Positions 2,522 through 19,616 are shown, counted from the stretch's first letter. The stretch is 19,616 nucleotides of DNA from a virus (IMGVR_UViG_2740892234_000002), one strand, 5' to 3'. The notes: a model not told the origin generated them from the letters alone. Translations and numbers: made by a program.

Positions 2522-2525
2522 GGGA

Positions 2526-3224: not shown

Positions 3225-3553
3225 CAGTTCACCACCTGTTCAAACTCTGCGCTGAACTCAACACGCAACATACTGACCTGCGACGACCATTTTGCGCAGG
3301 TCACCTTTATCTGCCTGTAACCATAAGGCGGCGTCCACAGAAAGGCCTTCCAGCCCCCGTGCTCAGCCAGAAACGACTCCAGCGCCGTGGCCTCCTCACG
3401 GGAGACAGACAGCGTCACGCTGTACGTTTTCAGGTCAGCGTTCAGCCCGGCAGGCGCACGCTGGGAATAGCCATCACCAAAGCGCACCGCCCTGACGGAA
3501 GGAGCCGATGTCACATCCATCCCGGGTTTCACTTTCCAGCGGAAGGTTTTCAT
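3224..3553 (-). CDS. M: Minor tail protein M (109 aa)
   Basis: ORF track; MKTFRWKVKPGMDVTSAPSVRAVRFGDGYSQRAPAGLNADLKTYSVTLS... matches lambda gpM in sequence and length. Confidence 0.93.
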   Translation of the reverse strand: MKTFRWKVKPGMDVTSAPSVRAVRFGDGYSQRAPAGLNADLKTYSVTLSVSREEATALESFLAEHGGWKAFLWTPPYGYRQIKVTCAKWSSQVSMLRVEFSAEFEQVVN

Positions 3554-6526: not shown

Positions 6527-6930
6527 TTTCCCGCAGAAACAGGCTCTGCAGGCCCGGCGTCCTCTGCCTGTTCAGGGGCATCATTCACCACAAACTCATA
6601 CATACCGGACAGCCGGTACACCACGTTTTCAGCATGAGAAATTGCCTCTGTAGGCCAGGTGGTAAGCACTTCCTGCTCAATCTGTTTAACGGCTTCATTC
6701 ATGGAAGGCAGCTTTGTCTTCTGCGGATGGTTATGCCACAGGGACATCGCTACCACAAAAGCACCGGTTCTGATGGCGTCTTCCACAGTAAACTTCCGGT
6801 TGCTGTCTGACTCCGCCTGTTCTGCCTGCCGTTTCATCAGGGCGAGATGCTCAATACGCTGCAGGGCTGACAGTTCAGAAAGCGTGACGGTCACGCCGTT
6901 ATGTTCAAATGATTCGGTTTTCAGGAACAT
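6508..6930 (-). CDS. G: Tail assembly chaperone G (140 aa)
   Basis: ORF track; MFLKTESFEHNGVTVTLSELSALQRIEHLALMKRQ... matches lambda gpG. Confidence 0.93.
   Translation of the reverse strand: MFLKTESFEHNGVTVTLSELSALQRIEHLALMKRQAEQAESDSNRKFTVEDAIRTGAFVVAMSLWHNHPQKTKLPSMNEAVKQIEQEVLTTWPTEAISHAENVVYRLSGMYEFVVNDAPEQAEDAGPAEPVSAGKCSTVS
6520..6535 (-). other. Programmed -1 ribosomal frameshift slippery heptamer GGGAAAG (G to G-T fusion)
   Basis: Minus strand reads ...tct gcg GGA AAG tgt tcg acg gtg agc tga in the G frame; a -1 slip gives GKVFDGELSF..., the T ORF. Coordinates +/-3 bp. Confidence 0.8.
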
Positions 6931-6945
6931 CGCTGACTCTCCGGA

Positions 6946-7686
6946 TTAACTGTCGGTGACAGTGATTTCTGCAACCGCAGCAAGTTCACCATTACCGGAT
7001 ACAACCGGAATGTTGACCTTACCTGCAGCAACGCCTTTCACGGTGATGGTCATACCACTGACCGACACGGTGGCTTTTGTTTTATCCGCTGACACCGCAC
7101 GGAAGCTCTTGTCAGTTGCGCCCTCCGGCTGGAATGCCACGGTCAGCGTGGTGCCCTGCCCTTTCACCACCGAGGAGCTGGCAGGCGTCACGGTCATACC
7201 GGTTGCCGCTGTTACCGTACTGCGATCTTCTGCCATTGACGGACGGCCCACATTGGTGACCTTCACCGTACGGGTGATCACTTCCTTCGCCGTCACCGCC
7301 TTACCGATACTGCTGACCCAGCCACGGAACACATCGACCGTGCCGTTCGGGAAGCGGATTTTATAGGCACGGGTATCACCTTCATTAAACCACGCCAGCA
7401 GCGCCTGCTGCCCCTGCTCTCCGGGCATCCACGCCAGCGTGAAGCTGGTATCTCCGGCGGATTTCTGCCCCTGCCCGGTCGCGGTCCAGTCCGCATCTTC
7501 ATCATCCAGGTAGTTATCATCGTAGGATTCTGCCGTCATCTCGCCCGGCGTCAGATCCTTCACCTTAGCCAGTCGCTGCCAGTCATCGTCTGACAACGGG
7601 TTTGCATAAGCATCACCCTTGCCGTTGTAAACCCACAGAGTGGTACCGGCACCTTTTACCGGCTCAAGGGGATTTGGTGTTGCCAT
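6946..7686 (-). CDS. V: Major tail tube protein V (246 aa) with C-terminal Ig-like domain
   Basis: ORF track; [42 protein letters not shown]...; C-terminal ...[29 protein letters not shown]... as in lambda gpV. Confidence 0.93.
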
Positions 7687-7693
7687 ATCGTCC

Positions 7694-8089
7694 TCACATC
7701 TCGTATGTAATGGAATAAGTCAGATCTGCAGAACTCCATAACGCCATATCGTCATCACGACGATACTCATAGCCCTGCGTAACCATCGTGGTAATCAGTC
7801 CTGCCAGTGCCGGGATCGCGGTCATCGCCGGGTAAATCCGGCTTTCCATCCACTGATCAAGCTCTGAATCCGGTACCTGTGCCGGTAAAAACACCTCAAT
7901 ATGCAGCGTGGCCCGCCAGGTATCTGCATCCAGCTCTTCACCGGTATACTCTGCATCCGTCAGATAAACCGCGATCGCAGGAAAATCCTCTTCGTCAAAA
8001 ACAACGGGGCGACCATCAAACAGCGTCGCCCCGTGTTCATGCTGCTCGAGTGCATCCAGCACTGCGGCACGAATGTCAGTGTGTTTCAT
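7694..8089 (-). CDS. U: Tail terminator protein U (131 aa)
   Basis: ORF track; [44 protein letters not shown]... lambda gpU-like, same length. Confidence 0.9.
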
Positions 8090-8619
8090 CGTTTTATTGC
8101 AATCCTCAGTTGTTGTTTCAGCGCGGATGCCAGTTCTTTAGGCAGTCGTTCACACCGGATACGGTCAACATTCTCATCAAATGCCTGTTTCAGTGGGGCC
8201 GCCATCGGGATTTTCACCACATCAATGGGGTAACGGTTTTTCCCGGCCACACGCTGCATGACATGCCAGCGACCATTTTTTAATCGCTGAATAAATGCCC
8301 GCTGATACCGATGCTGACCGGCTTTAAGTATGCTGTCCGGGCGACGCCCCGGCATCCTGATCCCCAGCTTAATCACAGGGAGATCACCGCGGTTAACGAT
8401 AATTCTGGCATTCGGATTTCTGACCGTCGCCCGTTTCAGTCTGGACCGTTCCTTAACCAGTTTCCGGCGAACCTTTGTCTCCCGGGCAACCTGTGATGAA
8501 GACTGATTAATCGCCGTTGTGGCCACGCGGTTAATGGCCATTGCTGAAGCCGCCGGAATGGCGTTTTTACGAACCCGGCTCAGATTGTCAATCGCCTGAT
8601 CAAGCCCTTTTATCGCCAT
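8086..8619 (-). CDS. Z: Tail completion protein Z (177 aa)
   Basis: ORF track; MAIKGLDQAIDNLSRVRKNAIPAASAMAINRVATTAINQSSSQVARETKVRRKLVKER... lambda gpZ-like. Confidence 0.9.
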   Translation of the reverse strand: MAIKGLDQAIDNLSRVRKNAIPAASAMAINRVATTAINQSSSQVARETKVRRKLVKERSRLKRATVRNPNARIIVNRGDLPVIKLGIRMPGRRPDSILKAGQHRYQRAFIQRLKNGRWHVMQRVAGKNRYPIDVVKIPMAAPLKQAFDENVDRIRCERLPKELASALKQQLRIAIKR

Positions 8620-8634
8620 AATTTCACCCTGCGT

Positions 8635-8988
8635 TTATCGTCGCCGGTTAACTGCGGGTGGTTGCCCACGGTTGAGCCAGAGATAACAGCTGCCCCCGTC
8701 ATCCGGAGAAACACGATCCACCCAGAATATCTCACCATTAATGGTCAGCGTGTCACCACGCCGCACGGCACGAACCGTATCCGTCCGCACAAATAATGAC
8801 GGGCTGCTTCCTTCAATACGGACCCCGCCACCGGCAAACCCCAGCGACTCCGGATCGTCAAAAACCCCCTGAACTTCGCTGCCACACTGTGCCCCCGAGG
8901 TGAACTGCGCACAGAGCCCCATCACTTCAACAATCGTGCTGTCCACCCCGGCAAGGGCAGCATCAAAGGCATTCTGAAAATCACGCAT
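8635..8988 (-). CDS. FII: Head-tail joining protein FII (117 aa)
   Basis: ORF track; ...GVFDDPESLGFAGGGVRIEGSSPSLFVRTDTVRAVRRGDTLTINGEIFWVDRVSPDDGGSCYLWL... lambda gpFII-like. Confidence 0.9.
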   Translation of the reverse strand: MRDFQNAFDAALAGVDSTIVEVMGLCAQFTSGAQCGSEVQGVFDDPESLGFAGGGVRIEGSSPSLFVRTDTVRAVRRGDTLTINGEIFWVDRVSPDDGGSCYLWLNRGQPPAVNRRR

Positions 8989-9364
8989 GCTCAGCCGTTC
9001 CGTGCTGTATCATGGCTGTCGCCAGTGGTGATGGCACCAGAACACGCATGCCCCGGTACGTCAGTTCAACGGGACGGCCTGTCTCCGGGCAATACCCCAT
9101 CACATGCAGGCATTTCCGCACACGGACCGCTTTAACATCATCCGTAGCATCAGTGTTGTGCAACTGCTCACCATCGTCTGTGTGATTTTGCTCAGGCCCG
9201 CTCTCATCACCAGGCATAATGCCCTCCCGGGAAGCAGCAAGCTCCTCTTCCCACTCAGACACACGTTGCGCAATATCCGCAGCACTCCCCGACATATCCG
9301 CCTCGCGCCCCAGCAGGCCAGCCAGTTGACGAAGACGTTTCTGATTTTCTTCTTTTGTTGCCAT
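8981..9364 (-). CDS. FI: DNA packaging protein FI-like (acidic); start taken at MATKEENQKRL inside ORF 8981..9412
   Basis: Position between E and FII; acidic small protein; a G-rich ribosome-binding site (GGGGG) precedes the internal ATG. Sequence diverged from lambda FI, so the call is mainly positional. Start +/-3 bp. Confidence 0.65.
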   Translation of the reverse strand: MATKEENQKRLRQLAGLLGREADMSGSAADIAQRVSEWEEELAASREGIMPGDESGPEQNHTDDGEQLHNTDATDDVKAVRVRKCLHVMGYCPETGRPVELTYRGMRVLVPSPLATAMIQHGTAEHA

Positions 9365-9378
9365 ATCAGCCCCCTGTG

Positions 9379-9407
9379 AAAAAAGACACGGGGGCATTTC
9401 GCCCCCG
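9379..9407 (-). terminator. GC-rich hairpin followed by a T tract just 3' of E (candidate intrinsic terminator or attenuator)
   Basis: Minus strand ...GAGCGGGGGCGAAATGCCCCCGTGTCTTTTTTCAC...: 6-7 bp G/C stem, 5-nt loop, run of six T. Lies between the E stop and the FI start. Confidence 0.5.
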
Positions 9408-9415
9408 CTCACGGA

Positions 9416-10444
9416 TTATTTCACCTGCACCACCACAAACTCATCCGGATCCGGCAGCACCATCAGCGGTGCGGACTGCGTCATGGTAAATTCACGGGCC
9501 GGATCGCCCACGGTCAGCCAGTGTTTCGGGTAACGGGAAGAAGCCACCACACCTTCGGACAACGCCTGCGCATCCTGAATGGCACCGTAACAACGGATCC
9601 CATCTGCAGCCGTATTTCCCAGGACCAGCGTGCCCTCCGGCAGATAACGTTTTTCGGTACCGTCCTCTGCCACATAAGACGTTTTCGCCACCACAATGGC
9701 CAGATCGCCGTAATACCCTTTGAAAGACACCACCGCCCCCAGGTCTTTCACTGCCGTTTCGAGTTGTGAATTTGAGCCGCGACGGGTATCCAGTTTTTCG
9801 CGGAACAGCTTAAAACCATTCAGCAGACGCCAGACAGTACCGTCCATAATGGCAATATTCACAAGACCGCTGGCCTGATCGCAGTAGAGGTCAATATCAT
9901 GCGTCGGATCAAACGTATCACGGTCCTGCTCAGACCATTTTTTACCGTCGGCCTGCTCAATGTTATTTCCTTCAGAGCGTCCAAAATCCACCTCGACAGT
10001 ATCAAACTGATCCCCTTCCATGGTGTATTTGCCATACAGCACGGCATTCACCGCCTGCATTTCTTCCACCTGGACAATGGCATGCTCTTCCTGTTTGAGG
10101 TTATCGGTGATGATACGCAGACGACGGTAGGCCGGGTCGTTCAGTTGAGCCGGATCTTCACCGGGAAGACGCTCAACCGCCTGCTGGTAATTAAATTCGT
10201 GTTTCGGCTTGACGTAGCCCGGACGTAACACGCGGGTTTCACCACCGCGATGACGCAGCACTTTTCCTTCAACAACCGGGGAGACATAGGCCGCCACCGG
10301 CGTTTTTCCGGTAATTTTGTCCAGCATCACCTCTTCGGTATGGAAATTCACCGTACGGCGGAAAAACAGCTCCAGAAACAGCGCACGAAATTTCACTTTT
10401 TGTTCGGTATAACCGAGTAACTGGCGGGTCGTAAACAATCCCAT
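9416..10444 (-). CDS. E: Major capsid protein E (342 aa)
   Basis: ORF track; ...SPVVEGKVLRHRGGETRVLRPGYVKPKHEFNYQ...KLDTRRGSNSQLETAVKDLG...TVGDPAREFTMTQSAPLMVLPDPDEFVVVQVK, lambda gpE-like but clearly diverged. Confidence 0.92.
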   Translation of the reverse strand: MGLFTTRQLLGYTEQKVKFRALFLELFFRRTVNFHTEEVMLDKITGKTPVAAYVSPVVEGKVLRHRGGETRVLRPGYVKPKHEFNYQQAVERLPGEDPAQLNDPAYRRLRIITDNLKQEEHAIVQVEEMQAVNAVLYGKYTMEGDQFDTVEVDFGRSEGNNIEQADGKKWSEQDRDTFDPTHDIDLYCDQASGLVNIAIMDGTVWRLLNGFKLFREKLDTRRGSNSQLETAVKDLGAVVSFKGYYGDLAIVVAKTSYVAEDGTEKRYLPEGTLVLGNTAADGIRCYGAIQDAQALSEGVVASSRYPKHWLTVGDPAREFTMTQSAPLMVLPDPDEFVVVQVK

Positions 10445-10473
10445 AAATCAGTTCCTTTCATTCAGAAATCAGT

Positions 10474-10493
10474 CAGGCCACCGCGGTGGCCTG
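10474..10493. other. Perfect ~20-bp palindrome CAGGCCACCGCGGTGGCCTG in the D-E intergenic spacer
   Basis: Read directly between the D stop (~10502) and the E start (10444); no adjacent T tract. Coordinates +/-3 bp. Confidence 0.5.
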
Positions 10494-10501
10494 ATAACGT
10501 G

Positions 10502-10849
10502 TTACGGCAGCGCCGCGTGACTCAGGGCACTGCCGGCAAAGGCATTTGCCTTTTTGTGTTCATCCACACTGTCAGGCCAGCGGATTGCCTCCGTCGCAAA
10601 GGTCCCCGACTTGTAATAGGTCAGTACCGTCTCTGTGCCTTCAAGCGGCAGTACCAGTATGCCAACCGCACTACCGGCTTTCTGTCCGTCCCAGACCACC
10701 AGTTTCCCGCTGGCTTCATCCAGCATCAGGGGCGTCAGTGCCGGTGTTGCCGAGGAAATCCCGCTGCTGCCTGTGGCGGTATGAGCCGGATCATTACCGG
10801 CAAAAATACGTACTTCCGCACGCTGTTCAGTGATGGTTTTCGTTACCAT
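10502..10849 (-). CDS. D: Head decoration protein D (115 aa)
   Basis: ORF track; ...NDPAHTATGSSG...TPLMLDEASGKLVVWDG...YKSGTF...AFAG... lambda gpD-like; GGAGG ribosome-binding site ~10 nt upstream of the ATG. Confidence 0.9.
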   Translation of the reverse strand: MVTKTITEQRAEVRIFAGNDPAHTATGSSGISSATPALTPLMLDEASGKLVVWDGQKAGSAVGILVLPLEGTETVLTYYKSGTFATEAIRWPDSVDEHKKANAFAGSALSHAALP

Positions 10850-10885
10850 ATTGTAAAAACCTCCTGTTGATGGTCAGCACTGACT

Positions 10886-12391
10886 TCATGGCATGGCCAT
10901 GAGCATTTTCACGTCCGCATCACCGTCTGCTGACGTCTGTGGCACGCCACCCTGTACCGCTGCCGGTGAATGGTTCGCCATGATGCGTTCAAACAGGGCG
11001 GTTGTGGATGCAGAGACCGGTTCTGCCTTACCTGATCCCGCAGCCAGCACAGCCCGGGCGCTCTCCACAGTCATTCCCGGGCAGGCAGCCAGCTGTTCAG
11101 CCTGCGCCTCAGCCCCTTTTGCCTCATCCAGTGCCATGATCTGATCACGGAGTGAGGGTCCGGCATCCGCCTGCGGTGAAGCAGCCAGGATCGGGCGGGC
11201 TTTTTCCACCGTCATCTCCGGCATCGCCGCCAGCGTTGCCGCCAGTTGTTCACGACCGTTCGCTTCTTCACACGCCATAATGCGATCGGCTTCACTCTGC
11301 GTGGATGCCACCGGCTGCTGCGGTGCCGCCGCGGCCAGAATCGCCCGGGCCTGTTCAACGCTCATGCCCTGTTGTCCTGCCAGCATCGTGGCAAGCTGTT
11401 CACGTCCTTTCGCTTCCTGGCATGTCAGGATCCCCATCACTCGCTGGTTCTCCTGCGCGGCGGCTTCCGTTGCAGTTAATTGCGGCATAGTGCCTCCTCT
11501 GACATTACTGTTCAGCGCCGTGGCCATCACACTGATGGCATCCGACGCATTGACTAATTCATCCGCCAGCCCGGCATCAATGCCGGACTGACCTTCAAAA
11601 ACGGCGGCCTCTGTTCCCGTGACGGCATCAACAGACAGACCGGTAAACATGGCCACTTTTTCGGCAAACATCCGGCGCGCCGCATCAATGCGCTGCTGCA
11701 TGTCCTGGCGAACCTCTGCCGGTAAGGCTTCAAACTGATTGCCATCCACCTTGTGCGCCCCTGAGTAAATCAGCGTGATATCCACACCGGCCTGCGCCAG
11801 ATGACCGGCATAGCTGACATGGCTCATCATCACGCCAATGGAGCCGATACGGGATGTCTGGGTAACCAGCCGTCGGGAGCAGGCCGACGCCAGCAGCATG
11901 GCTGCAGAACAGGCCGTGTCATTGCACAGTGCCCAGACCGGCTTCTGCTGACGGAGGCGGTAAATCATGTCAGCGCAGTCAAACGCGCCGGCGGCCTGCC
12001 CGCCCGGACTGTCAATGTCCAGCAGTACGCCCCGCACCTGGCTATCCGCCATTGCCTGCTGAAGACAGGCGACAATGCCGTCATAGCCTGTCATTCCGGA
12101 AAATGGCCGCATACCCCCCAGCCGGTGCACCAGCGTGCCGGTCACCGGCAGTACAGCAATACCGTTCACCACCCGGTAAACACGGGCCGGTCGTTTACCT
12201 CCGGCCATGTACTCGTCCGTTTCAGCCAGCATTCCGGGAGCATCAAGCTGTACCTGCTGCTGTGGTACCGAAAGACTTGCTGCCCCCATCTCGCGCCCGA
12301 GCGCGCAAAAGAAAACCCGCGCATAGGCGGGCTCCAGAAGCAGCGGTTCATTGAATGCCGCGGCAATAATGTGTGAAAGATTACGTCTCAC
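10886..12391 (-). CDS. C: Head maturation protease C (S49/ClpP-like) with in-frame C-terminal scaffold (Nu3) domain; 501 aa
   Basis: ORF track; ...AFNEPLLLEPAYARVFFCAL...VWALCNDTACSAAMLLASACSRRLVTQTSRIGSIGVMM... matches lambda gpC. Start codon reads as GTG in my transcription, overlapping the B 3' end. About 60 aa longer than lambda C because of extra C-terminal repeats. Confidence 0.9.
   Translation of the reverse strand: MRRNLSHIIAAAFNEPLLLEPAYARVFFCALGREMGAASLSVPQQQVQLDAPGMLAETDEYMAGGKRPARVYRVVNGIAVLPVTGTLVHRLGGMRPFSGMTGYDGIVACLQQAMADSQVRGVLLDIDSPGGQAAGAFDCADMIYRLRQQKPVWALCNDTACSAAMLLASACSRRLVTQTSRIGSIGVMMSHVSYAGHLAQAGVDITLIYSGAHKVDGNQFEALPAEVRQDMQQRIDAARRMFAEKVAMFTGLSVDAVTGTEAAVFEGQSGIDAGLADELVNASDAISVMATALNSNVRGGTMPQLTATEAAAQENQRVMGILTCQEAKGREQLATMLAGQQGMSVEQARAILAAAAPQQPVASTQSEADRIMACEEANGREQLAATLAAMPEMTVEKARPILAASPQADAGPSLRDQIMALDEAKGAEAQAEQLAACPGMTVESARAVLAAGSGKAEPVSASTTALFERIMANHSPAAVQGGVPQTSADGDADVKMLMAMP
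11020..11470 (-). repeat. Three tandem, diverged in-frame repeats (~111-135 bp each; ~37-45 aa) within the scaffold (Nu3-equivalent) part of C
   Basis: Protein units ILTCQEAKGREQLATMLAGQQGMSVEQARAILAAAAPQ / IMACEEANGREQLAATLAAMPEMTVEKARPILAASPQ / IMALDEAKGAEAQAEQLAACPGMTVESARAVLAAGSG; matching periodicity visible in the DNA. Boundaries approximate. Confidence 0.8.
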
Positions 12392-13973
12392 GGGGTGTTG
12401 TCTCCTCTTCCGGCCTGCGACTCTCCGCTATCTGCTGCTGATACGCCTGCGCTATCCACACCGGACGTGAGAGTCCGGCTTTTTGCCGCTCTGCAGATTC
12501 CCTGACCTGCTGGCGGAAAATGTCCTGATAATCCTCGCCCATCAGCGCCAGCTCTTTCTCATACGTGCTCAGTCCGGCCTCAATGCGCATCACCGATTCC
12601 TGAACCTCCTTGAGCCCGTCAATGGCCATTCTTCCGGCACCAATCCACTCTGCCCGTGACCAGGCTGATCGCGCCTGATAAAAATCAAAACGCGCCCGTG
12701 GCGGACGGATAATCCCCCGAAGAAGTGCCTCTTCCAGCCAGCAGGAAAACATCTGCGTGGCCAGCCGGGCCGCAATAAATTTTCGCCGCCCCATAAAATA
12801 GCGCCACGACTCATTGGCAGAGGCCCTGGCACTTGAATAACTGACCTTCGAGTAATCACGGGACAACTGTTCGTAGGAAACGCCAAGACCGGCGGCGATA
12901 TACCGCAGCAGCGCCTGTTCAAGCGCCGAAAATCCATTGTCTGAATCCTGCGCAGTCTGTAGTTTCAGATCATCACCAGGGAAAAGGTGCGGAATTTTGA
13001 CTCCGCCCAGCGTCACGCTATTCGTGTCATACCAGCTGGAGAACTTCTCCAGAATATTAATAAGCGGATTATCCTTCTGCTCCTGTGGCGCGCCGGCGAT
13101 ATATTCAAAGGCCTTTTCGGTATCAAGTTCACTTTCAATCGTCGCTGCATACATGGCTTTCACAATGGCCGACTGAAGCTGTGTTGCCTGCAGGGAATCC
13201 AGCATCTTCAGCCGTTCCATGACGCTGTAAAACTGATTAGCCCCACGGGTCTGCCCGTCCTCCACCGGCTCGAAAATATGCAGCATGGCCGGACGCCCGG
13301 TGGGAAGTTCACGCGGGATCCGTTCCCATCGTCCACTCCCGGAGAACGGAAAATCATCCTCACAGATATGGTACGCAACGGCACGGCCATATCGATCGAC
13401 CTCCACCCCGGCCCGCAGAAAACGGTTCCCCATACCGTGTCCTGGCGTGTCCACCCGTTTCGGACTCACGGCTTTAAAACGCGTACGGAATAACTGCGTG
13501 GTTTCCGTATCCCAGACCGGCTGCACAAAGATTTCGCCGTTAAACGCATGAACGCCCACACCTTCACGGATAAATTCCGTGAACGTGCGTTTTCCTTCCA
13601 CGTCGATCTCGCCAGACATCCCTTCGGCGTATTCCGACCAGGCCGCCTCCACCTCATCGACAAAGCTTTTTGCTGCGGTCTCCCGCATCCCCAGCCAGCG
13701 CCAGTTCGGACGGTAGCTGATAAGAAACATATGCCCGACAATGTGATCCTTATGCAGTGCCACCGCATTGGCCGCTATTCCGTTATTGCGCACCAGATCA
13801 TCTGCCCGGGCATTCCCCAGACGCAACGCGGGCAGCAGGGCCGCATCGGCACTCTGCGCCGGTGGCAACCACTCCGCCATTTGCCCGCCAAATCCTGCGC
13901 CGCCCCCGTTGTAGCTGAGACTCTCACGAAGCGGAACGCCGTTCACATCAATCAGGACAGGCGTTCGTTTCAT
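12381..13973 (-). CDS. B: Portal protein B (530 aa)
   Basis: ORF track; ...GNARADDLVRNNGIAANAVALHKDHIVG...FEPVEDGQTRGANQFYSVMERLKMLDSLQATQLQSAIVKAMYAATIESELD... lambda gpB-like; the W stop overlaps the B start (ATGA). Confidence 0.95.
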   Translation of the reverse strand: MKRTPVLIDVNGVPLRESLSYNGGGAGFGGQMAEWLPPAQSADAALLPALRLGNARADDLVRNNGIAANAVALHKDHIVGHMFLISYRPNWRWLGMRETAAKSFVDEVEAAWSEYAEGMSGEIDVEGKRTFTEFIREGVGVHAFNGEIFVQPVWDTETTQLFRTRFKAVSPKRVDTPGHGMGNRFLRAGVEVDRYGRAVAYHICEDDFPFSGSGRWERIPRELPTGRPAMLHIFEPVEDGQTRGANQFYSVMERLKMLDSLQATQLQSAIVKAMYAATIESELDTEKAFEYIAGAPQEQKDNPLINILEKFSSWYDTNSVTLGGVKIPHLFPGDDLKLQTAQDSDNGFSALEQALLRYIAAGLGVSYEQLSRDYSKVSYSSARASANESWRYFMGRRKFIAARLATQMFSCWLEEALLRGIIRPPRARFDFYQARSAWSRAEWIGAGRMAIDGLKEVQESVMRIEAGLSTYEKELALMGEDYQDIFRQQVRESAERQKAGLSRPVWIAQAYQQQIAESRRPEEETTPRET

Positions 13974-14176
13974 AACCTCACTCCCAGCGGACGACGGCGA
14001 CGCCGGGTTGTCCCCAGTACCGACTCCGCATCATTGATCGCCCGGTTAAGCTCATCCAGAGAAGCCGCCGTATATTCAATTCTGCGACCATCTTTCTGGA
14101 CAGACACCACCCGTTTACCGGTTAATAAATCAAGGCGCGCCTGACGCAGCGCCTGCAGTTCAGCGACTGTAACCAT
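13970..14176 (-). CDS. W: Head-tail joining/head completion protein W (68 aa)
   Basis: ORF track; MVTVAELQALRQARLDLLTGKRVVSVQKDGRRIEYTAASLDELNRAINDAESVLG..., lambda gpW-like, same length. Confidence 0.9.
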   Translation of the reverse strand: MVTVAELQALRQARLDLLTGKRVVSVQKDGRRIEYTAASLDELNRAINDAESVLGTTRRRRRPLGVRL

Positions 14177-16088
14177 TCACTCCTCCGGACAGCTTCGCTG
14201 CCAGTTCTTTCAGGGTTGGCCGGGTCGTCTCTTCTTCCCGGGATTTTGCCAGTACAGCCAGATCAAGCTGCCAGCGTTGCACGGACACACGTAATGCCGC
14301 GTAGGCATACACCAGGCAGTCCAGCGCTTCGTTACGCCGCTTTTTGTTATCCCACAGCAGACGCATCTTTCCTTTTTCCCACTTCTCCACAAGCTCTTCC
14401 GCCACCAGTTGCTGCGCCTCTGTCTGCGAAAAAATCTCCGGATCATCAGGAAAACGGATGGCATACGACGTGGCTTCATCCGCAGGCGTGGGATCGGCTT
14501 TCATACGGGCATAGAGAATTTCTTTTGCGGTGTCCGTCCCCACTTCACACAGATACACGCCCCGCTGATTGCGGGTTTTCGGCATGGTGATCACCGGCTT
14601 GCCATAGACAGACGCGCCTTTTACCGGCAGCACCCGGAAAACACCGTGTTTTTTTGATCTCTGATAAACAATTTCACCATCGATCCCCCCGGTGTCCCAG
14701 CAGACACGGGAAATGGTCATTTCGGTGCCATCCGCATGGCGATATTTTTTGTTGATCGCAGCATCCACACGTAACAGCGTCTCTTCCTCATCGGGACGCC
14801 CCATAATGATGATTTTATCCACCAGAAAGGCTTCCTCTCCCGGTGCCCATCCCCAGACATACATCTCAAAACGGTTTCGCTGCGAGTCAATGCCCGCCGT
14901 CAGATAAACCACCCGGGAAGGCACCGCAGCCGTGTAACGCACAACCTTATCCATCAGTACCTGGTGATCGAGTTTTTCGCCCACGGCCTCTTCCCAGGTC
15001 TCGCCCAGCGTGGTGTTCACAAAGGTTTTCAGGCCGTTGGGATCTTTCAGTGCATCCAGCCAGTCATAGACAATCTGTACCCAGGTGGTGAACGGACTGT
15101 ACGCCGTCCAGATATGGAACGTGATGGAGCGCGGCGGCGGAATTTCATCACCCCGGGCGCTGAAAAACGTCAGACCGTCACGGGTCCACATGCCCGTGTT
15201 TTCACAGATCCACCGCCCGTTGCTCTGGTCCAGTTCAGACTGATGGATCACGCAGCCATGATGTTCACAGAGGTAGAAAACACTTTCAGGGCTGTCCTTC
15301 TCCCATTTAAGCCCAAAAGGCGTGGACTCATCGCCAAATTTCAGATACTGCGCCTCCCCACAGTGCGGGCAGGGCACATAAAAACGCATAAAATGCGCCG
15401 ACTCGTTAGCGGCTTTTTCGATCTGGCAGGTGCCTTTGATTTTAGGCGTCGAGCCGCGAATGGATTTTGGCCACACCGACCCCTCAATACGCTTATCCCC
15501 CAGCAGGGTTGGCGAGCCCTCTTTTTCGACATCCGGCTCGAACGAGGAAAGTTCGTCATAGCAGACCACGTCCACGGATTTTTCACGGTAGTTTTTGGCG
15601 GCAGCGCCGCCCAGGCACCAGAAACCGACGCCCGATGAAAAGCGTTTCAGCGTGAGAGTATTGTCACGATGTTTACGACCCAGCCATGGGGAAAGGTCTT
15701 TCAGGCATGGCACGTTCCGAATCGTCGCCTCCACGTGAGACTTCATAAAATCTTCAGCGGCAGAATCCGTGGGCTGAAAAAGCAGACTGTTTCGGGATTT
15801 ATGCTCAATAAAATACCCGACCACCCCCAGCAACATCTTTGTATAGCCAACACGGGCAGATTTAATCAGGTTAACCGTGCGAACCTGGTCGTTACCCATA
15901 CAGTTCATAATGGCGATCTGGAATGGCAGCGTTTTCCATTCGCCCTCACCGTATGAGGATTCTTTAGGCAGATAATAATTTTGATCAGCCCATTCAACTG
16001 CCGTCATTGGTACAACCCTGACCAGAGGCTGCAGCGCAACCGAAACGGCAGCCATCATATTATTCAGTTGTTGCTCTGATATATTCAT
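14160..16088 (-). CDS. A: Terminase large subunit A; start taken at MNISEQQLNN inside ORF 14160..16145
   Basis: MNISEQQLNNMMAAV...TAVEWADQNYYLPKESSYGEGEWKTLPFQIAIMNCMG...SARVGYTKMLLG...CPHCGEAQYLKFGDESTPFGLKW..., collinear with lambda gpA. The upstream extension in the ORF track starts at a non-ATG codon. Confidence 0.95.
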   Translation of the reverse strand: MNISEQQLNNMMAAVSVALQPLVRVVPMTAVEWADQNYYLPKESSYGEGEWKTLPFQIAIMNCMGNDQVRTVNLIKSARVGYTKMLLGVVGYFIEHKSRNSLLFQPTDSAAEDFMKSHVEATIRNVPCLKDLSPWLGRKHRDNTLTLKRFSSGVGFWCLGGAAAKNYREKSVDVVCYDELSSFEPDVEKEGSPTLLGDKRIEGSVWPKSIRGSTPKIKGTCQIEKAANESAHFMRFYVPCPHCGEAQYLKFGDESTPFGLKWEKDSPESVFYLCEHHGCVIHQSELDQSNGRWICENTGMWTRDGLTFFSARGDEIPPPRSITFHIWTAYSPFTTWVQIVYDWLDALKDPNGLKTFVNTTLGETWEEAVGEKLDHQVLMDKVVRYTAAVPSRVVYLTAGIDSQRNRFEMYVWGWAPGEEAFLVDKIIIMGRPDEEETLLRVDAAINKKYRHADGTEMTISRVCWDTGGIDGEIVYQRSKKHGVFRVLPVKGASVYGKPVITMPKTRNQRGVYLCEVGTDTAKEILYARMKADPTPADEATSYAIRFPDDPEIFSQTEAQQLVAEELVEKWEKGKMRLLWDNKKRRNEALDCLVYAYAALRVSVQRWQLDLAVLAKSREEETTRPTLKELAAKLSGGVNGYSR

Positions 16089-16775
16089 CGAGTAAATCCG
16101 GTAATTTATCCCCTGCCCGCGCACACTGATTTGCCCCCTTAGCAATAAGGGTTTTCAGATGGTCAAGATGGCGCGGTGTTAAATCAGGAAACTGTCGCTG
16201 CATGGATAAAGGGATGGAATCAAGCGTACTGGATAACGCCATTGCCAGCTTACTGAGGGCAAAAATACAGAACCCGGTGTCAATAAGTTTTCCTTTTGAC
16301 ACCTCATTTTTTAACTGCTGTGTAACAGCCTGTTCTGCTGTCAGTTCCCATCTGGCAATAAGCAATTTCTCCTCATAGTCGTCTTCGCTATCGCCATCAG
16401 GCACATCGTTTTTACTTCTCCTCAGATACGATATGTAAAAATCGCGCCAGGCATCCAGATCCAGTTGCNNNNNNNNNNTCCGGTGTCAATAAGCTTTCCT
16501 TCGGACGCCTGATTTTTTAATTGCTGGGCGATTGCCTGTTCTTCGATCAACTTCCATCTGGCAATGAGTAACTTTTCTTCATAGTCGTCTTCGCTATCGC
16601 CATCAGGCACATCGTTTTTACTTCTTCTCAGATACGATATGTAAAAATCGCGCCAGGCATCCAGATCCAGTTGCCCTCGCTTATTCGATATCGGGGCACC
16701 CGGCAATTTCTGCAATCTGCGAAGCTGGCGATCGGTCAGACTTAAATGCCTGGCAACTTCAGTCTGCGTAGCCAC
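16060..16775 (-). CDS. nu1: Terminase small subunit Nu1, interrupted by a 10-N gap (16469-16478) with a duplicated, diverged ~196-bp overlap on either side
   Basis: ORF 16422..16775 (MATQTEVARHLSLTDRQLRRLQKLPG..., HTH-like N-terminus unlike lambda) and ORF 16060..16404 (...FCIFALSKLAMALSSTLDSIPLSMQRQFPDLTPRHLDHLK..., lambda Nu1 C-terminus-like) share the segment NDVPDGDSEDDYEEKLLIARW...GKLIDTG. Start reads as GTG with a strong AGGTGAGGA ribosome-binding site. True length probably ~170 aa. Confidence 0.8.
16272..16674. repeat. Direct repeat pair (16272-16468 and 16479-16674, >90% identical by eye) flanking an N gap inside Nu1
   Basis: Both copies encode the same Nu1 segment with substitutions (E/K, TAEQAVTQ vs IEEQAIAQ, NEVSKG vs NQASEG). 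Confidence 0.85.
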
Positions 16776-16795
16776 TCCTCACCTCGCAAAAACTC

Positions 16796-17054
16796 TCACC
16801 TCACAATCACAACAAAACCGGTCATGTCCGGTTTACATGTCTGTTTTTTGTTCATGTCCGGTTCACAGAAGACCTGTTTTTATATTTTTCATATAGTTAA
16901 CTTGAAGAGAAACCGGACATNNNNNNNNNNTACCTCACAATCAGCACAAAACCGGTCATGTCCGGTTTACATGTCCGTTTTTTGCACATGTCCGGTTCAC
17001 GGACAGCCTGTTTTTATATTTTTCATATAGTTAACTTGCAGAGAAACCGGACAT
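16796..17054. repeat. Direct repeat pair (16796-16920 and 16931-17054, >90% identical by eye) flanking N gap 16921-16930; each copy carries the cosB-like repeat cluster
   Basis: ...CACAAAACCGGTCATGTCCGGTTTACATGTC(T/C)GTTTTTTG...CATGTCCGGTTCAC...TTTTTATATTTTTCATATAGTTAACTTG(A/C)AGAGAAACCGGACAT present twice with scattered mismatches. Confidence 0.85.
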
Positions 17055-17060
17055 GGATCC
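16940..17060. other. cosB-like region: repeated CATGTCCGGTT / AAACCGGACATG elements in both orientations around an AT-rich spacer (candidate Nu1 R sites and IHF site)
   Basis: Motif copies at ~16949-16968, ~16970-16980, ~16987-16997 and inverted at ~17045-17056, between the Nu1 start and cosN; layout parallels lambda R3-I1-R2-R1 but the sequence does not. Confidence 0.6.
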
Positions 17061-17092
17061 CGGAAAATTTTCATAAATAGCGAAAACCCGCG

Positions 17093-17104
17093 AGGTCGCC
17101 GCCC
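17093..17104. other. cos: cosN cohesive-end sequence (reverse complement of lambda GGGCGGCGACCT)
   Basis: + strand ...CCCGCGAGGTCGCCGCCCCGTAACC..., then GGAAAGGACCCGCAAAATGATAATAATTATCAT matching the lambda right-end sequence as recalled. Coordinates +/-3 bp. Confidence 0.85.
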
Positions 17105-17303
17105 CGTAACCGGTCGGATCGCCGGAAAGGACCCGCAAAATGATAATAATTATCATCTACATGTCACAACGTGCATCTACGCCATCAAACCACGTCAAAT
17201 AATCAATTATGACGCAGGTATCGTATTAATTGATCTGCGTCAACTTAACGTAAAAACAACTTCAGACAATACAAATCAGCGACACTGAATACGGGGCAAC
17301 CTC

Positions 17304-17498
17304 ATGTCAACGAAGAACAGAACCCGCAGAACAACAACCCGCAACATCCGCTTTCCTAACCAAATGATTGAACAAATTAACATCGCTCTTGAGCAAAAAG
17401 GGTCTGGGAATTTCTCAGCCTGGGTCATTGAAGCCTGCCGTCGGAGACTAACGTCAGAAAAGAGAGCATATACATCAATCCAAAGTGATGATGGATGA
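17304..17498 (+). CDS. ylcI: Small YlcI/YnfO-like prophage protein (DUF3950-like), 64 aa
   Basis: ORF track; MSTKNRTRRTTTRNIRFPNQMIEQINIALEQKGSGNFSAWVIEACRRRL... matches E. coli cryptic-prophage YlcI as recalled; the only convincing + strand gene in the window. Confidence 0.65.
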   Translation: MSTKNRTRRTTTRNIRFPNQMIEQINIALEQKGSGNFSAWVIEACRRRLTSEKRAYTSIQSDDG

Positions 17499-17662
17499 AC
17501 ATCCCGGTTTCTTCCACCATCGCACCGGAAAAGCGACTATGAGGGTAACCCTGCGTCTGTCAGCACAGTAAAACCCGGTGTGCATCGTTTTTGATTATTC
17601 CCGCACACTCACGCAGAAGGAATTCCCCGTCGGGCTACGGTCATGGTTAATGCGGGAATACG

Positions 17663-18159
17663 GCGACGATACAGCGCATAATGTGTCAGGCTTGAATACC
17701 TTTATCGAATCCCGGTAATAAAAACTGTCCCTGTCTCTCCAGACGTTCCAGCTTTGCAAGCAATTGAGGTTTTTTCGTTCTCCCCCAGCGATTGAGCAGA
17801 CGGCCTGACATGCTGGCGACATCCTTCTCTTTCATGTACTCCAGCATTACGGCGTTACGTTCTGCTTCATAACTTTCGCTGTACTTACGGAGTTCTGCTG
17901 ACATCNNNNNNNNNNAGCGACGATACTGCGCATGATGTGTCAGACTTGAATACCCTTATCGAATCCCGGTAATAAAAACTGTCCCTGTCTCTCCAGGCGT
18001 TTCAGCTTTGCAAGCAATTGAGGTTTTTTCGTTCTTCCCCAGCGATTGAGCAGCCGGCCAGACATACTGGCGACATCCTTCTCTTTCATATACTCCAGCA
18101 TTATGGCGTTGCGTTCTGCTTCATAACTTTCGCTGTACTTACGGAGTTCTGCTGACATC
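17663..18159. repeat. Direct repeat pair (17663-17905 and 17916-18159, >90% identical by eye) flanking N gap 17906-17915
   Basis: Both copies contain the 3' ~215 nt of the Rha-like gene plus ~30 nt downstream; ORF 17686..17904 is the truncated second version of the same C-terminus. Confidence 0.85.
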
Positions 18160-18557
18160 CAGTTAAACGCATTGATATAGGCTTCTTTAACAGCATCGGC
18201 TTTTGCCCCGTTAAATCCCATAACCAGCATAACGAAGCCACTAAAGTCCATGCGGTAGTAAATCTGTTTCTTGTCGAAAATCCCTAAGTCATTGATTTTC
18301 TCGACGGCCCAAAAATGGGTTGTCGAGAATTCCTCAGAACATCTCAAACATTTAATAGCCCTAATCACATGCTGATGGCGTTTACCAAATGCCCTGGCAA
18401 TCTGGAAGGTGTCAGTTACCGGTTGACCTTCTGCTGCGGTAACTAACTGGCGAAAGTCGAAGTCATGATTCGCAATTAATTCATTCATGGCGTTGCCTGC
18501 TTCTTTGAAATGAACCTTTGCCGCACAGGAAACCAGCCCACCGAGGCTCGCCAGCAC
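17940..18557 (-). CDS. Rha-family-like phage regulatory protein (putative antirepressor-type), 205 aa as in ORF track; an internal ATG (MNELIANHDF, ~18488) may be the true start
   Basis: N-terminal motif ...VTDTFQIARAFGKRHQHVIRAIK... resembles the Rha domain signature; C-terminal half of unknown function. Family assignment from motif memory only. Confidence 0.5.
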   Translation of the reverse strand: MLASLGGLVSCAAKVHFKEAGNAMNELIANHDFDFRQLVTAAEGQPVTDTFQIARAFGKRHQHVIRAIKCLRCSEEFSTTHFWAVEKINDLGIFDKKQIYYRMDFSGFVMLVMGFNGAKADAVKEAYINAFNWMSAELRKYSESYEAERNAIMLEYMKEKDVASMSGRLLNRWGRTKKPQLLAKLKRLERQGQFLLPGFDKGIQV

Positions 18558-18640
18558 TAACTGGTATCCTCAAAGGCCCATTCCAAAGGGTCAGGTTCGG
18601 TGTTTATTGTGCGCTGCGGTGCGCGGTGAAATACCGGTAC

Positions 18641-18671
18641 AAAAATGCCCCGCATCTGCGAGGCATTTTCC
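18641..18671 (-). terminator. Strong inverted repeat followed by a T tract downstream of Rz/Rz1 (candidate rho-independent terminator, possibly bidirectional)
   Basis: Minus strand GGAAAATGCCTCGCAGATGCGGGGCATTTTTGTACC: ~11-12 bp stem with one mismatch, then TTTTT. Lies between the Rz stop (~18707) and the Rha-like gene start. Confidence 0.6.
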
Positions 18672-18706
18672 TGAAAGTCACTTGTTAAATTTCAGTGAAA
18701 TTAAAA

Positions 18707-19137
18707 TTATTTTAAGCACTGCGTCCTGATGTACTCCTGCAAGTAGTTAACCTGCGCGGTTATCCTGTCGATTCCACTTCGGAGACGGTAATAATTGAGT
18801 TCAGCATCTGCTGTAAGTCCTGGGCTNNNNNNNNNNCGCTGGCTCCGGTCTTTGACTTTGCACAGGAGGCGGCGACTTGCAGCCGCTTACGCCCAGCAGA
18901 AACATCATCACGGAGACTTTCGATAGTCGCGTTAGCATCAGCAAGCTCCTTTGTATATCTGGCATCGAGTTCTGCTACATCACGTTGACGCTTCTGCATA
19001 TCAGCGATGATGGATGTGGCTTTATCGCGCTGGTCTTTGTAGGCGATAGCGTTATCACGGTAATGATTAACAGCCCATGACAGGCAGACGATGAGGCAGA
19101 TGACCAGAACGTAGATAATCGCGGTTACTCTGCTCAT
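18707..19137 (-). CDS. Rz: i-spanin Rz, split by 10-N gap 18827-18836 that shifts the apparent frame
   Basis: 5' part [39 protein letters not shown]...[18 protein letters not shown] matches lambda Rz; 3' of the gap, a different frame reads ...[36 protein letters not shown], matching the lambda Rz C-terminus. ATG overlaps the lysozyme stop (ATGA). Coordinates +/-3 bp. Confidence 0.8.
18760..18938 (-). CDS. Rz1: o-spanin Rz1 (lipoprotein) embedded in the +1 frame of Rz, also interrupted by the N gap
   Basis: Embedded frame reads [34 protein letters not shown] [gap] [21 protein letters not shown]: signal peptide, lipobox-like VSGC, proline-rich segment, as in lambda Rz1. Start +/-3 bp. Confidence 0.7.
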
Positions 19138-19347
19138 TGTTGCCCCCACAAACAGACTTCACGCTCAATCTCACGGCGAGTCATCAGCCCTTTCCATTGC
19201 TTACCGCCAGCGTATGTCCAGNNNNNNNNNNAGAGCGGAGATAATAACGGTTACCCTGCTCATTGTTGCCCCCACAAACAGACTTCACGCTCAATCTCGC
19301 GGCGAGTCATCAGCCCTTTCCATTGCTTACCGCCAGCGTATGTCCAG
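19114..19347. repeat. Direct repeat pair (19114-19221 and 19240-19347, >90% identical by eye) flanking N gap 19222-19231
   Basis: Both copies contain the lysozyme 3' end (...[22 protein letters not shown]) overlapping the Rz start (MSRVT...); the second copy's Rz is cut off after ~11 codons by the gap. Confidence 0.85.
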
Positions 19348-19616
19348 CGCCGTAGCTGATCACATGCGCCTTTGATATCGCCCTGGTTTATTTTGCGAAG
19401 AAGCGTCGATGTTCTGAAATTGCCAGCGCCCACGTTGTAAACGAACGAGTAAAGAGCGCCGCGCGTTGTTTCCGGTATATCGACGTTGATGTACGGGTTA
19501 ATTTGTCTGGCGACCGTGGCAAGGTCTTTATTCAGGAGGGCTTTGCATTCTGCTTCGGTATACGTTTTACCGGGCATGATGTCTTTTCCGGTGTGTCCGT
19601 GACATACAGTCCATAC
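19260..19616 (-). CDS. R: Phage lysozyme (GH24, T4/P22-type; RrrD-like), C-terminal ~118 aa; gene start lies beyond the window end
   Basis: Translation to the window edge reads [43 protein letters not shown]...[40 protein letters not shown], matching E. coli prophage lysozyme RrrD as recalled. Confidence 0.85.

What the first reader, a model, noticed from the sequence alone, without database searches (positions are those of the whole stretch)
16272..19347. Four of six N gaps are flanked by diverged direct repeats: the cos-to-lysis region looks like a scaffold stitched from different prophage copies
At 16469, 16921, 17906 and 19222 a 10-N run sits between two copies of the same 110-245 bp segment that differ at roughly 5-10% of positions. 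Each pair covers part of a gene or site (Nu1, cosB, Rha-like 3' end, lysozyme-Rz junction). This is what contig-end overlaps from paralogous lambdoid prophages look like when scaffolded rather than merged. Linkage of head genes, cos, the YlcI/Rha-like genes and the lysis cassette is therefore not established, and the duplicated genes are probably artefacts rather than tandem duplications.
Basis: seen in the sequence. Interest (0 to 1): 0.55.

Follow-up and report, generated by a model that had tools for sequence, protein, structure and literature searches.

The report
Assembly artefact: duplicated prophage segments at gaps
The four "direct repeats" beside the N gaps are not biology: they are alternative versions of one stretch from different look-alike prophages in the same E. 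coli genome, which a short-read assembler laid side by side, so this scaffold is a patchwork and its gene linkage cannot be trusted.

Summary

- **The repeats.** The only direct repeats of 40 nt or more in the window are four pairs of 116-244 nt, 88-95% identical. Each pair is flush with a 10-N run on both sides.
- **Closed genomes.** Closed E. coli genomes carry the region once and collinear. The seven segments tile it with overlaps of 196, 124, 243 and 116 bp, and with real gaps of 1 and 17-18 bp.
- **Origin of the two copies.** In the closest closed relative, strain 2013C-3264, the two copies of each pair match different lambdoid prophages, at 0.94, 1.35 and 4.47 Mb. Most match with zero mismatches.
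- **Segments between gaps.** Some of these are chimeric too. Segment 5 alternates five times between two prophage types, and no closed genome matches it above 98.8%.
- **Segment boundaries.** They carry an exact de Bruijn-graph signature. In a graph built from four prophages of the relative, 5 of 6 segment ends and 5 of 6 segment starts fall on node boundaries at k=49. No segment end does so at any other k tried.
- **Source.** The window is the whole scaffold CCQE01000089.1 of assembly GCA_000752595.1.

Verdict: uncollapsed paralogue "bubble arms" placed in series by the assembler's own scaffolder. This is an ordinary false duplication and not a biological feature. Its interest is low, except as a warning about every linkage-based claim for this window.

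The parts
1..1036 (-). Segment 1, inside the tail-tip gene J. The scaffold's left end lies within a repeated prophage gene.
   Evidence: 100% identical to L002 4964-5999. gpJ annotation.
1037..1046 (.). 10-N gap that replaces a single base (A). This base is a one-k-mer node shared between prophage J genes.
   Evidence: L002 5999 and 6001 flank the gap. Both boundaries are k=49 node boundaries once the 3.8-Mb prophage is added to the graph.
1047..16468 (-). Segment 2 (15,422 bp): lambda-like tail, head, portal, terminase large subunit and the C-terminal part of Nu1. It is itself a mosaic. Positions 1047-8296 are 4.47-Mb type, with inserts of 3.81-Mb type at 1836-2097 and 2355-2672. Positions 8337-16468 are 0.94-Mb type.
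   Evidence: Positions 12000-16468 are 100.000% identical to L003.
16273..16468 (-). Left arm of pair 1, Nu1 codons, 0.94-Mb prophage allele. It ends 48 nt after the last variant site (16420).
   Evidence: 0 differences from L003 and 24 from L002. 48-nt run. 100% match at NZ_CP027544.1 940649-940917.
16469..16478 (.). 10-N spacer between two alternative arms. No sequence is missing here.
   Evidence: Segments overlap by 196 bp on closed genomes.
16479..16674 (-). Right arm of pair 1, the same Nu1 codons, 4.47-Mb prophage allele. It starts on a variant base.
   Evidence: 0 differences from L002 over 16479-16688. Both arms stay in frame, with 8 of 65 amino acids different.
16479..16920 (-). Segment 3 (442 bp), a chimera. 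Positions 16479-16626 are 4.47-Mb type and 16689-16920 are 0.94-Mb type. It holds the N-terminal part of Nu1 and cosB.
   Evidence: The best closed-genome match is 99.3%.
16797..16920 (.). Left arm of pair 2, cosB spacer, 0.94-Mb type. It ends only 15 nt after the last variant site, which is not explained.
   Evidence: 0 differences from L003. L003 continues identically to segment 4.
16921..16930 (.). 10-N spacer between two alternative arms.
   Evidence: 124-bp overlap on closed genomes.
16931..17054 (.). Right arm of pair 2, cosB spacer, 4.47-Mb type. It starts on a variant base.
   Evidence: 0 differences from L002. It is a node start at k=49.
16931..17905 (.). Segment 4 (975 bp), 4.47-Mb type: cosB, cosN, ylcI and the 3' end of Rha.
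   Evidence: 99.9% identical to L002, 1 mismatch at 17112.
17093..17104 (-). cosN 12-nt cohesive end. The reverse complement reads GGGCGGCGACCT.
   Evidence: Read directly from the sequence. The lambda end sequence is from my memory. The linear record of phage 2G7b ends at window 17105.
17304..17498 (+). ylcI/ynfO family gene.
   Evidence: ORF. Annotation in L001 and L002.
17662..17905 (-). Left arm of pair 3, 3' end of the Rha-family gene, 4.47-Mb type. It ends 48 nt after the last variant site (17857).
17906..17915 (.). 10-N spacer between two alternative arms.
   Evidence: 243-244-bp overlap on closed genomes.
17916..18159 (-). Right arm of pair 3, 3' end of Rha, 1.35-Mb type. It starts on a variant base.
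   Evidence: 0 differences from L004 and 14 from L002. 3 of 73 amino acids differ between the arms.
17916..18826 (-). Segment 5 (911 bp): the complete Rha-family gene (17940-18557) and the 3' end of Rz. It alternates between 1.35-Mb and 4.47-Mb types in five blocks. It ends 48 nt after its last variant site (18778).
   Evidence: No closed genome matches above 98.8%.
18827..18836 (.). 10-N gap that replaces 17 nt (TTCTCCATCGCCCATGC). These 17 nt are a short node shared by the paralogues.
   Evidence: k=49 boundaries on both sides.
18837..19221 (-). Segment 6 (385 bp), one complete bubble arm of 1.35-Mb type (337 nt of variant span plus 48). It covers Rz and the 3' end of rrrD.
   Evidence: 100% identical to L004 and 94.3% to L002.
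19106..19221 (-). Left arm of pair 4, Rz start and rrrD stop, 1.35-Mb type. It ends 48 nt after the last variant site (19173).
19222..19231 (.). 10-N spacer between two alternative arms.
   Evidence: 116-bp overlap on closed genomes.
19232..19347 (-). Right arm of pair 4, 4.47-Mb type. Its start at 19232 is not explained by the paralogues I could fetch.
19232..19616 (-). Segment 7, lysozyme rrrD, 4.47-Mb type. The scaffold's right end lies within a repeated prophage gene.
   Evidence: 99.7% identical to L002. The contig length equals the window length.

Best explanation
The window is a whole draft scaffold, CCQE01000089.1 of GCA_000752595.1. It comes from an E. coli strain with several near-identical lambdoid prophages and was assembled from short reads with a de Bruijn graph at k=49.

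**How the repeats arise.** Where two prophages differ over a stretch whose variant sites lie less than 49 nt apart, the graph forms a bubble with two arms between shared flanks. Short bubbles were collapsed to one arm picked arbitrarily, which makes chimeric segments. Long bubbles were kept. Read pairs anchored in the identical flanks place both arms at the same position. The assembler's own scaffolder therefore wrote arm 1, its minimum spacer of 10 N, then arm 2 and what follows.

**What this explains.**
- Each left copy ends exactly 48 nt (k-1) after the last difference.
- Each right copy begins on the first differing base.
- The two repeat-free gaps simply skip tiny shared nodes of 1 and 17 nt.

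**What is shown and what is inferred.**
- Shown: single copy in closed genomes; the arms are exact alleles of different prophages in one closed relative; the k=49 node-boundary match.
- Inferred: the source strain carries the same set of prophages; the scaffolding used read pairs; the program was Velvet. I recall the Velvet manual saying that gaps shorter than 10 bp are written as 10 N, and that its node sequences omit the k-1 prefix.
For: - The four repeat pairs are the only direct repeats in the window and all are flush with N runs.
- Closed genomes have one copy, and the segments tile with overlaps of 196, 124, 243 and 116 bp and gaps of 1 and 17-18 bp.
- In strain 2013C-3264 the arms map to different prophages with 0-1 mismatches: 0.94 Mb, 1.35 Mb and 4.47 Mb.
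- In the cos-to-lysis part, every variant site of segments 3, 5 and 6 and the tail of segment 2 matches one of these paralogues. Every type switch lies in a shared stretch of at least 53 nt.
- There are exact 48-nt runs after the last mismatch in 3 of 4 pairs, and also at the end of segment 5.
- In a graph simulated from four prophages of the relative, 5 of 6 segment ends and 5 of 6 segment starts are node boundaries at k=49. For segment ends the count is 0 of 6 at every other k tried: 47, 48, 50, 51 and the other odd values 25-79. Background node-end density is 41 per 2,854 positions.
- Differences between arms are mostly transitions, have no indels in the coding arms, and both arms stay in frame. 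These are natural alleles, not read errors.
- Ko et al. 2022 list gaps between duplicated pairs on one scaffold as a hallmark of false duplication.
Against: - The source reads were not available, so coverage of the two arms and the number of prophages in the source strain are unknown.
- Two boundaries are not reproduced by the paralogues I could fetch: the segment end at 16920 and the segment start at 19232.
- Inside segment 2, bubbles of about 136 and 159 nt appear collapsed without duplication. A simple length cut-off therefore does not explain every case, or the source strain differs from the relative there.
- I could not confirm the Velvet 10-N rule in the literature held here.
Confidence: 0.94

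Rival explanations
1. Free-standing contigs from paralogous prophages were ordered against a reference, or by an external scaffolder, and concatenated with 10-N spacers without trimming their overlapping ends. This is the literal reading of the first reader's wording.
For: The segments tile a closed reference with overlaps. The segments are small (385-975 bp), as is typical of repeat contigs.
Against: Free-standing de Bruijn contigs carry a full k-mer at both ends. Here the right segments start exactly on the first variant base and lack the 48-nt shared prefix, while the left segments do carry the 48-nt shared suffix. That asymmetry fits concatenation of graph nodes inside the assembler. The 1-nt and 17-nt gaps are exactly skipped graph nodes.
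Confidence: 0.04
2. The two arms come from two different strains in a mixed or contaminated culture, not from paralogous prophages of one genome.
For: It cannot be excluded without reads. Each arm is a natural allele present in many E. coli genomes.
Against: A single closed genome, the closest relative of the 15.4-kb segment at 99.6%, already contains all the arm alleles as paralogues at 0.94, 1.35, 3.81 and 4.47 Mb. No second strain is needed.
Confidence: 0.03
3. The repeats are genuine tandem duplications of 116-244 bp within one prophage (in Nu1, cosB, Rha and Rz/rrrD), and each happens to contain an unsequenced gap.
For: Only that the record as deposited shows two copies.
Against: Of 5,426 complete E. 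coli genomes, 216 carry at least 80% of this region in one place, and in the listed best matches the 3,817-nt query spans only about 3.1 kb, or 4.4 kb with an IS3 insertion; the two examined in detail have a single copy of each segment. All four pairs are flush with N runs. Their boundaries obey k=49 arithmetic. The copies are exact alleles of different prophages. Each duplication would also disrupt an essential gene or site.
Confidence: 0.01
4. The overlaps are one and the same locus, and the 5-12% differences are sequencing or consensus errors at low-quality contig ends.
For: None beyond the position of the differences near segment ends.
Against: Both versions occur with 0 mismatches in closed genomes. 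The changes are mostly transitions, contain no indels in the coding arms, and keep the reading frames open.
Confidence: 0.005

Closest known systems
False 'heterotype' duplications in genome assemblies (Ko et al. 2022, Genome Biol 23:205, PMC9516828; they cite Kelley & Salzberg for earlier detection work)
   Same: Two diverged versions of one locus are both kept and placed next to each other on one scaffold with an assembly gap between them. This creates false gene fragments and false duplications. That paper lists gaps between duplicated pairs as a hallmark.
   Different: In that work the two versions are the haplotypes of a diploid. Here they are paralogous prophages of a haploid bacterium. 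The pieces here are only 116-385 nt, and their boundaries can be derived exactly from k=49.
Uncollapsed bubbles and collapsed repeats in de Bruijn-graph assemblers with built-in scaffolding. Velvet is the program I recall writing any gap under 10 bp as 10 N.
   Same: The k-1 tail on the upstream arm, a downstream arm that starts on the first new base, fixed 10-N spacers, and an odd k.
   Different: The identity of the assembler is not documented in anything I could read. One boundary pair (16920 and 19232) is not reproduced.
Multiple near-identical lambdoid prophages of attaching-and-effacing / Shiga-toxin-type E. coli, for example strain 2013C-3264 (NZ_CP027544.1)
   Same: The window has the lambda-like order J...tail...head...portal...terminase-Nu1-cos-ylcI-Rha-Rz-rrrD. 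The relative has 11-12 places matching the tail and head genes, and two of its prophages are near-identical (0-5 differences per 250 bp) over about 7 kb of head genes.
   Different: The window is not any one of these prophages. It is a path that hops between at least four of them.

Membership tests
False duplication / uncollapsed bubble arms at a scaffold gap | An assembly gap lies between the two copies, and both copies abut it | tested here: met
   All four pairs are flush with a 10-N run to within 0-1 nt. There are no other direct repeats of 40 nt or more.
False duplication / uncollapsed bubble arms at a scaffold gap | The locus is single-copy in finished genomes | tested here: met
   The segments tile L001 and L002 once, with overlaps equal to the repeat lengths. 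216 complete genomes carry at least 80% of the region in one place.
False duplication / uncollapsed bubble arms at a scaffold gap | The two copies are distinct natural alleles (paralogues or haplotypes), not errors | tested here: met
   The arms are 0-1 mismatch from different prophages of NZ_CP027544.1. Reading frames are preserved.
False duplication / uncollapsed bubble arms at a scaffold gap | Copy boundaries follow the assembler's k-mer arithmetic | tested here: met
   48-nt tails. 5 of 6 ends and 5 of 6 starts are node boundaries at k=49, and no ends match at other k. Two boundaries remain unexplained.
False duplication / uncollapsed bubble arms at a scaffold gap | Each copy has a fraction of the read depth of the shared flanks, and read pairs are discordant | not testable with these tools
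Genuine tandem duplication | Both copies are contiguous in at least one finished genome or read | tested here: not met
   The listed best matches among 5,426 complete genomes span only about 3.1 kb (or 4.4 kb with an IS3 insertion) for the 3,817-nt query. The two closed loci examined in detail have one copy of each segment.
Lambda-type cos/terminase module (context) | Nu1 (terminase small subunit) and gpA genes next to a cosN 12-mer, with a cosB spacer between them | tested here: met
   Annotation of the collinear closed loci. Pfam Phage_Nu1, GpA_ATPase and GpA_nuclease on the relatives. AGGTCGCCGCCC at 17093-17104. A linear phage record ends at 17105. The lambda cosN sequence itself is from memory.

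The most novel reading that the evidence does not exclude
The source strain might really carry a recombinant lambdoid prophage in which short tracts (about 50-400 bp) from three or four resident prophages alternate through gene conversion. In that case the mosaic pattern inside segments 2, 3 and 5 would be biological, and only the four duplicated arms would be artefacts. The evidence does not strictly exclude this, because the source reads were not seen and the comparison genome is a relative, not the same strain.
Probability: 0.06. Interest if true: 0.3.

Novelty: not a real feature. Interest (0 to 1): 0.07.

Why it matters
The value is for data quality only.

- Any claim drawn from this scaffold is unsafe. 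That includes duplicated or truncated Nu1, Rha, Rz and lysozyme genes, a "doubled" cosB, linkage of this head/terminase module to this lysis cassette, and unusual protein alleles.
- As an example, the C40-peptidase protein encoded at 1778-2521 occurs on this one contig only, in a collection of about 15 billion proteins. Its gene is a patchwork of two paralogues.
- The analysis also yields a simple reusable diagnostic for such artefacts. A fixed-length N run is flanked by diverged copies, the upstream copy ends exactly k-1 nt after the last difference, and the downstream copy starts on the first difference.

Tried and rejected
- **GTDB species representatives.** I scanned them for the 46-mer at the end of segment 2 to find the source or its paralogues. 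There were 0 hits.
- **Tape-measure protein look-up.** It returned ten other assemblies but not the source. The C40-peptidase look-up then found the source.
- **Literature search for the accession** (CCQE01 / GCA_000752595). Nothing was found.
- **Documenting the Velvet "10 N" rule in held papers.** The hits were irrelevant, and the Velvet protocols paper is not held. The assembler's name therefore rests on my memory.
- **The 3.78-3.81-Mb prophage of the relative.** I fetched it hoping it would explain the boundaries at 16920 and 19232. It has a different terminase and lysis region and explains only gap 1037.
- **A simple bubble-length cut-off.** In the cos-lysis region, arms of 103 nt or less were collapsed and arms of 157 nt or more were kept. 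I rejected this as a general rule because bubbles of about 136 and 159 nt inside segment 2 are collapsed.
- **Read errors, true tandem duplication and external reference-guided stitching.** Considered and rejected, as set out under the rival explanations.


Full report
**1. The observation**

The window has six runs of exactly 10 N, which cut it into seven segments:

| Segment | Coordinates |
|---|---|
| 1 | 1-1036 |
| 2 | 1047-16468 |
| 3 | 16479-16920 |
| 4 | 16931-17905 |
| 5 | 17916-18826 |
| 6 | 18837-19221 |
| 7 | 19232-19616 |

I aligned the 600 nt on each side of every gap and made ungapped comparisons. At four gaps the tail of the left segment repeats as the head of the right segment, flush with the Ns:

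| Gap | Length of repeat | Differences |
|---|---|---|
| 16469 | 196 nt | 24 mismatches |
| 16921 | about 123 nt | 7 mismatches and two 1-nt indels |
| 17906 | 244 nt | 14 mismatches |
| 19222 | 116 nt | 6 mismatches |

The repeat finder reports exactly these four families and nothing else of 40 nt or more in the whole window. Gaps 1037 and 18827 have no flanking repeat. Divergence reaches 12% in the first pair.

**2. What lies there**

The region matches lambdoid prophages in most of 5,426 complete E. coli genomes. On two closed loci the gene order, on the minus strand, is terminase large subunit, terminase small subunit (Nu1), a non-coding spacer with cos, ylcI (plus strand), a Rha-family regulator, the lysis protein (Rz), lysozyme rrrD and holin. 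The two loci are L001 from NZ_CP148378.1 and L002 from NZ_CP027544.1.

AGGTCGCCGCCC at 17093-17104 is the reverse complement of the lambda cohesive end as I remember it. The linear record of phage 2G7b ends at window position 17105.

**3. Finished genomes have one copy**

BLAST of the segments against L001 and L002 shows that they tile a single-copy sequence.
- Neighbouring segments overlap by 196, 124, 243-244 and 116 bp at the four repeat-flanked gaps.
- One base (A) is missing at gap 1037.
- 17-18 bases (TTCTCCATCGCCCATGC) are missing at gap 18827.

**4. The copies belong to different prophages**

Strain 2013C-3264 (NZ_CP027544.1) is by far the closest closed genome to the 15.4-kb segment. 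It is 99.6% identical over the full length, and the next best is 96.9%. It has 11-12 places that match the tail and head genes. Site-by-site comparison gives this picture:

| Piece of the window | Matches |
|---|---|
| Tail of segment 2, in fact all of 12000-16468 | 100.000% identical to the prophage at 0.94 Mb (L003/L005); differs from the 4.47-Mb prophage (L002) at the 24 sites of pair 1 |
| Head of segment 3 (16479-16626) | Identical to the 4.47-Mb prophage |
| Rest of segment 3 (16689-16920) | Identical to the 0.94-Mb prophage |
| Segments 4 and 7 | 4.47-Mb type, one mismatch each |
| Segment 6 | 100% identical to a third prophage at 1.35 Mb (L004); only 4 of 5,426 genomes have this exact 385-mer |
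| Segment 5 | Alternates 1.35 / 4.47 / 1.35 / 4.47 / 1.35 Mb type in five blocks |

In segment 5 every variant site matches one of the two types, and every switch lies in a shared stretch of at least 53 nt. No closed genome matches segment 5 above 98.8%.

In the relative, the 0.94-Mb prophage, which owns the window's terminase/Nu1 allele, continues after cos into a different module: a 225-nt ylcI, PerC and another lysozyme. The linkage shown in the window is therefore unsupported.

The differences between arms are mostly transitions (18:6, 11:3, 4:2), have no indels in the coding arms, and leave both arms in frame. Amino-acid differences are 8 of 65 in Nu1, 3 of 73 in Rha and 0 of 28 in the rrrD C-terminus. 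These are natural alleles, not read errors.

**5. The segment boundaries are graph boundaries at k=49**

In three of the four pairs the left copy ends exactly 48 nt after the last mismatch, and the right copy begins on a mismatch. Segment 5 also ends exactly 48 nt after its last variant site (18778 to 18826). Segment 6 starts on a base that differs between the paralogues, C versus T. Segment 6 is exactly one arm: 337 nt of variant span plus 48 makes 385.

I built de Bruijn graphs from stretches of the prophages of the relative and asked whether the window's segment boundaries are node boundaries. The first graph used three prophages. The second added the 3.78-3.81-Mb prophage.
- At k=49 with four prophages, 5 of 6 segment ends (1036, 16468, 17905, 18826, 19221) are node ends.
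- At k=49 with four prophages, 5 of 6 segment starts (1047, 16479, 16931, 17916, 18837) are the last base of a node's first k-mer.
- No segment end matched at any other k tried: the other odd values from 25 to 79 with three prophages, and 47, 48, 50 and 51 with four.
- Node ends occupy only 41 of 2,854 positions along the path, so the agreement is not chance.

There is an asymmetry: a 48-nt shared tail on the upstream arm and no 48-nt shared head on the downstream arm. That is what one gets when graph nodes are concatenated inside an assembler. It is not what one gets when finished FASTA contigs are joined by an outside tool.

The two repeat-free gaps are simply skipped shared nodes of 1 and 17 k-mers.

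From memory, Velvet stores nodes without the k-1 prefix, requires an odd k, and writes any scaffold gap shorter than 10 bp as 10 N. I could not confirm this in the papers available.

**6. Mechanism**

Two prophages that differ over a cluster of sites less than 49 nt apart form a bubble between shared flanks.
- Short bubbles were reduced to one arm. This produced the chimeric segments 3 and 5, and probably the 1836-2672 stretch of segment 2.
- Long bubbles survived. Read pairs anchored in the identical flanks assign both arms to the same place. The estimated distance between them is negative, so the scaffolder emits arm, 10 N, arm.

This is the bacterial, paralogue-driven counterpart of the false "heterotype" duplications described for diploid genomes. 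[quoted passage not shown] 2022).

**7. Source**

The C40-peptidase protein encoded at 1778-2521 occurs on a single contig in the whole protein collection: CCQE01000089.1 of GCA_000752595.1. Its length of 19,616 bp equals the window. The window is therefore the entire scaffold, and both its ends lie inside repeated prophage genes (J and rrrD).

That protein is unique because its gene is a patchwork of the 4.47-Mb and 3.81-Mb paralogues. Every variant site matches one or the other.

**8. Open points**

- The segment end at 16920, only 15 nt after the last variant site, and the segment start at 19232 are not reproduced by the paralogues I could fetch. The relative has further copies of these regions: 3 and 5 places.
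- A few isolated sites match none of the fetched paralogues: 8955, 10619, 10710, 10712, 17112 and 19370.
- Without the reads I cannot exclude that some internal mosaics are real recombinants, or that two strains were mixed. Neither is needed to explain the data.

**9. Verdict**

This is an ordinary assembly artefact with no biological novelty. It is useful only as a warning flag for this scaffold and as a simple diagnostic rule.

Noticed in passing
window 1836-2672 (inside segment 2; genes for tail proteins K/C40 peptidase and L): Two tracts (1836-2097 and 2355-2672) carry the allele of a fourth prophage of the relative, at 3.81 Mb. The tract between them and the flanks are 4.47-Mb type. Every variant site matches one of the two. 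No closed genome exceeds 99.0% identity. The encoded 247-aa protein occurs on this contig only in the whole protein collection. It is probably an assembly chimera, but real gene conversion is not excluded.
   Followed up: yes
window ~7547-14500 (head genes: portal, protease, decoration, capsid, FI, etc.): In the closed relative, the 0.94-Mb and 4.47-Mb prophages are almost identical over about 7 kb (0-5 differences per 250 bp). The window switches from the 4.47-Mb type to the 0.94-Mb type around 8296-8337 without any gap. The 15.4-kb 'contig' therefore links tail genes of one prophage to the terminase of another.
   Followed up: partly
window 3550-6099 (tape-measure gene, minus strand): The gene is intact here at 849 aa. 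The identical protein is encoded in the 1.35-Mb prophage of the relative and in many drafts. The copy in the 4.47-Mb prophage of the closed relative is annotated as frameshifted, and the window differs from it at 4358 and 5765. This is possibly a long-read indel error in the closed genome rather than a real pseudogene.
   Followed up: no
loci L007 (18383), L010 (17574), L012 (17639), from assemblies GCA_000951855.1, GCA_000936245.1 and GCA_000940255.1: Other draft assemblies carrying the same tape-measure protein have single-N gaps inside or next to the J tail-tip gene, with split or duplicated J gene calls. The same class of paralogue-driven scaffolding trouble is therefore probably widespread in drafts of these strains. 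Most contigs carrying this protein are only 5-10 kb long (121 of 162 index blocks).
   Followed up: no
window 8955, 10619, 10710, 10712, 17112, 19370: These isolated sites match none of the fetched prophages of the relative. They are either true strain differences or alleles of further paralogues that I did not fetch.
   Followed up: no
window 16920/16921 and 19232: These two segment boundaries do not fit the k=49 graph built from the fetched paralogues. Segment 3 stops 15 nt after its last variant site instead of 48. Segment 7 starts 3 nt before its first difference from segment 6. A further paralogue forking at these points is the likely cause.
   Followed up: partly
whole window: There is strong strand asymmetry in base composition (C 6074 vs G 4677). 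This is consistent with nearly all genes lying on the minus strand of the scaffold.
   Followed up: no
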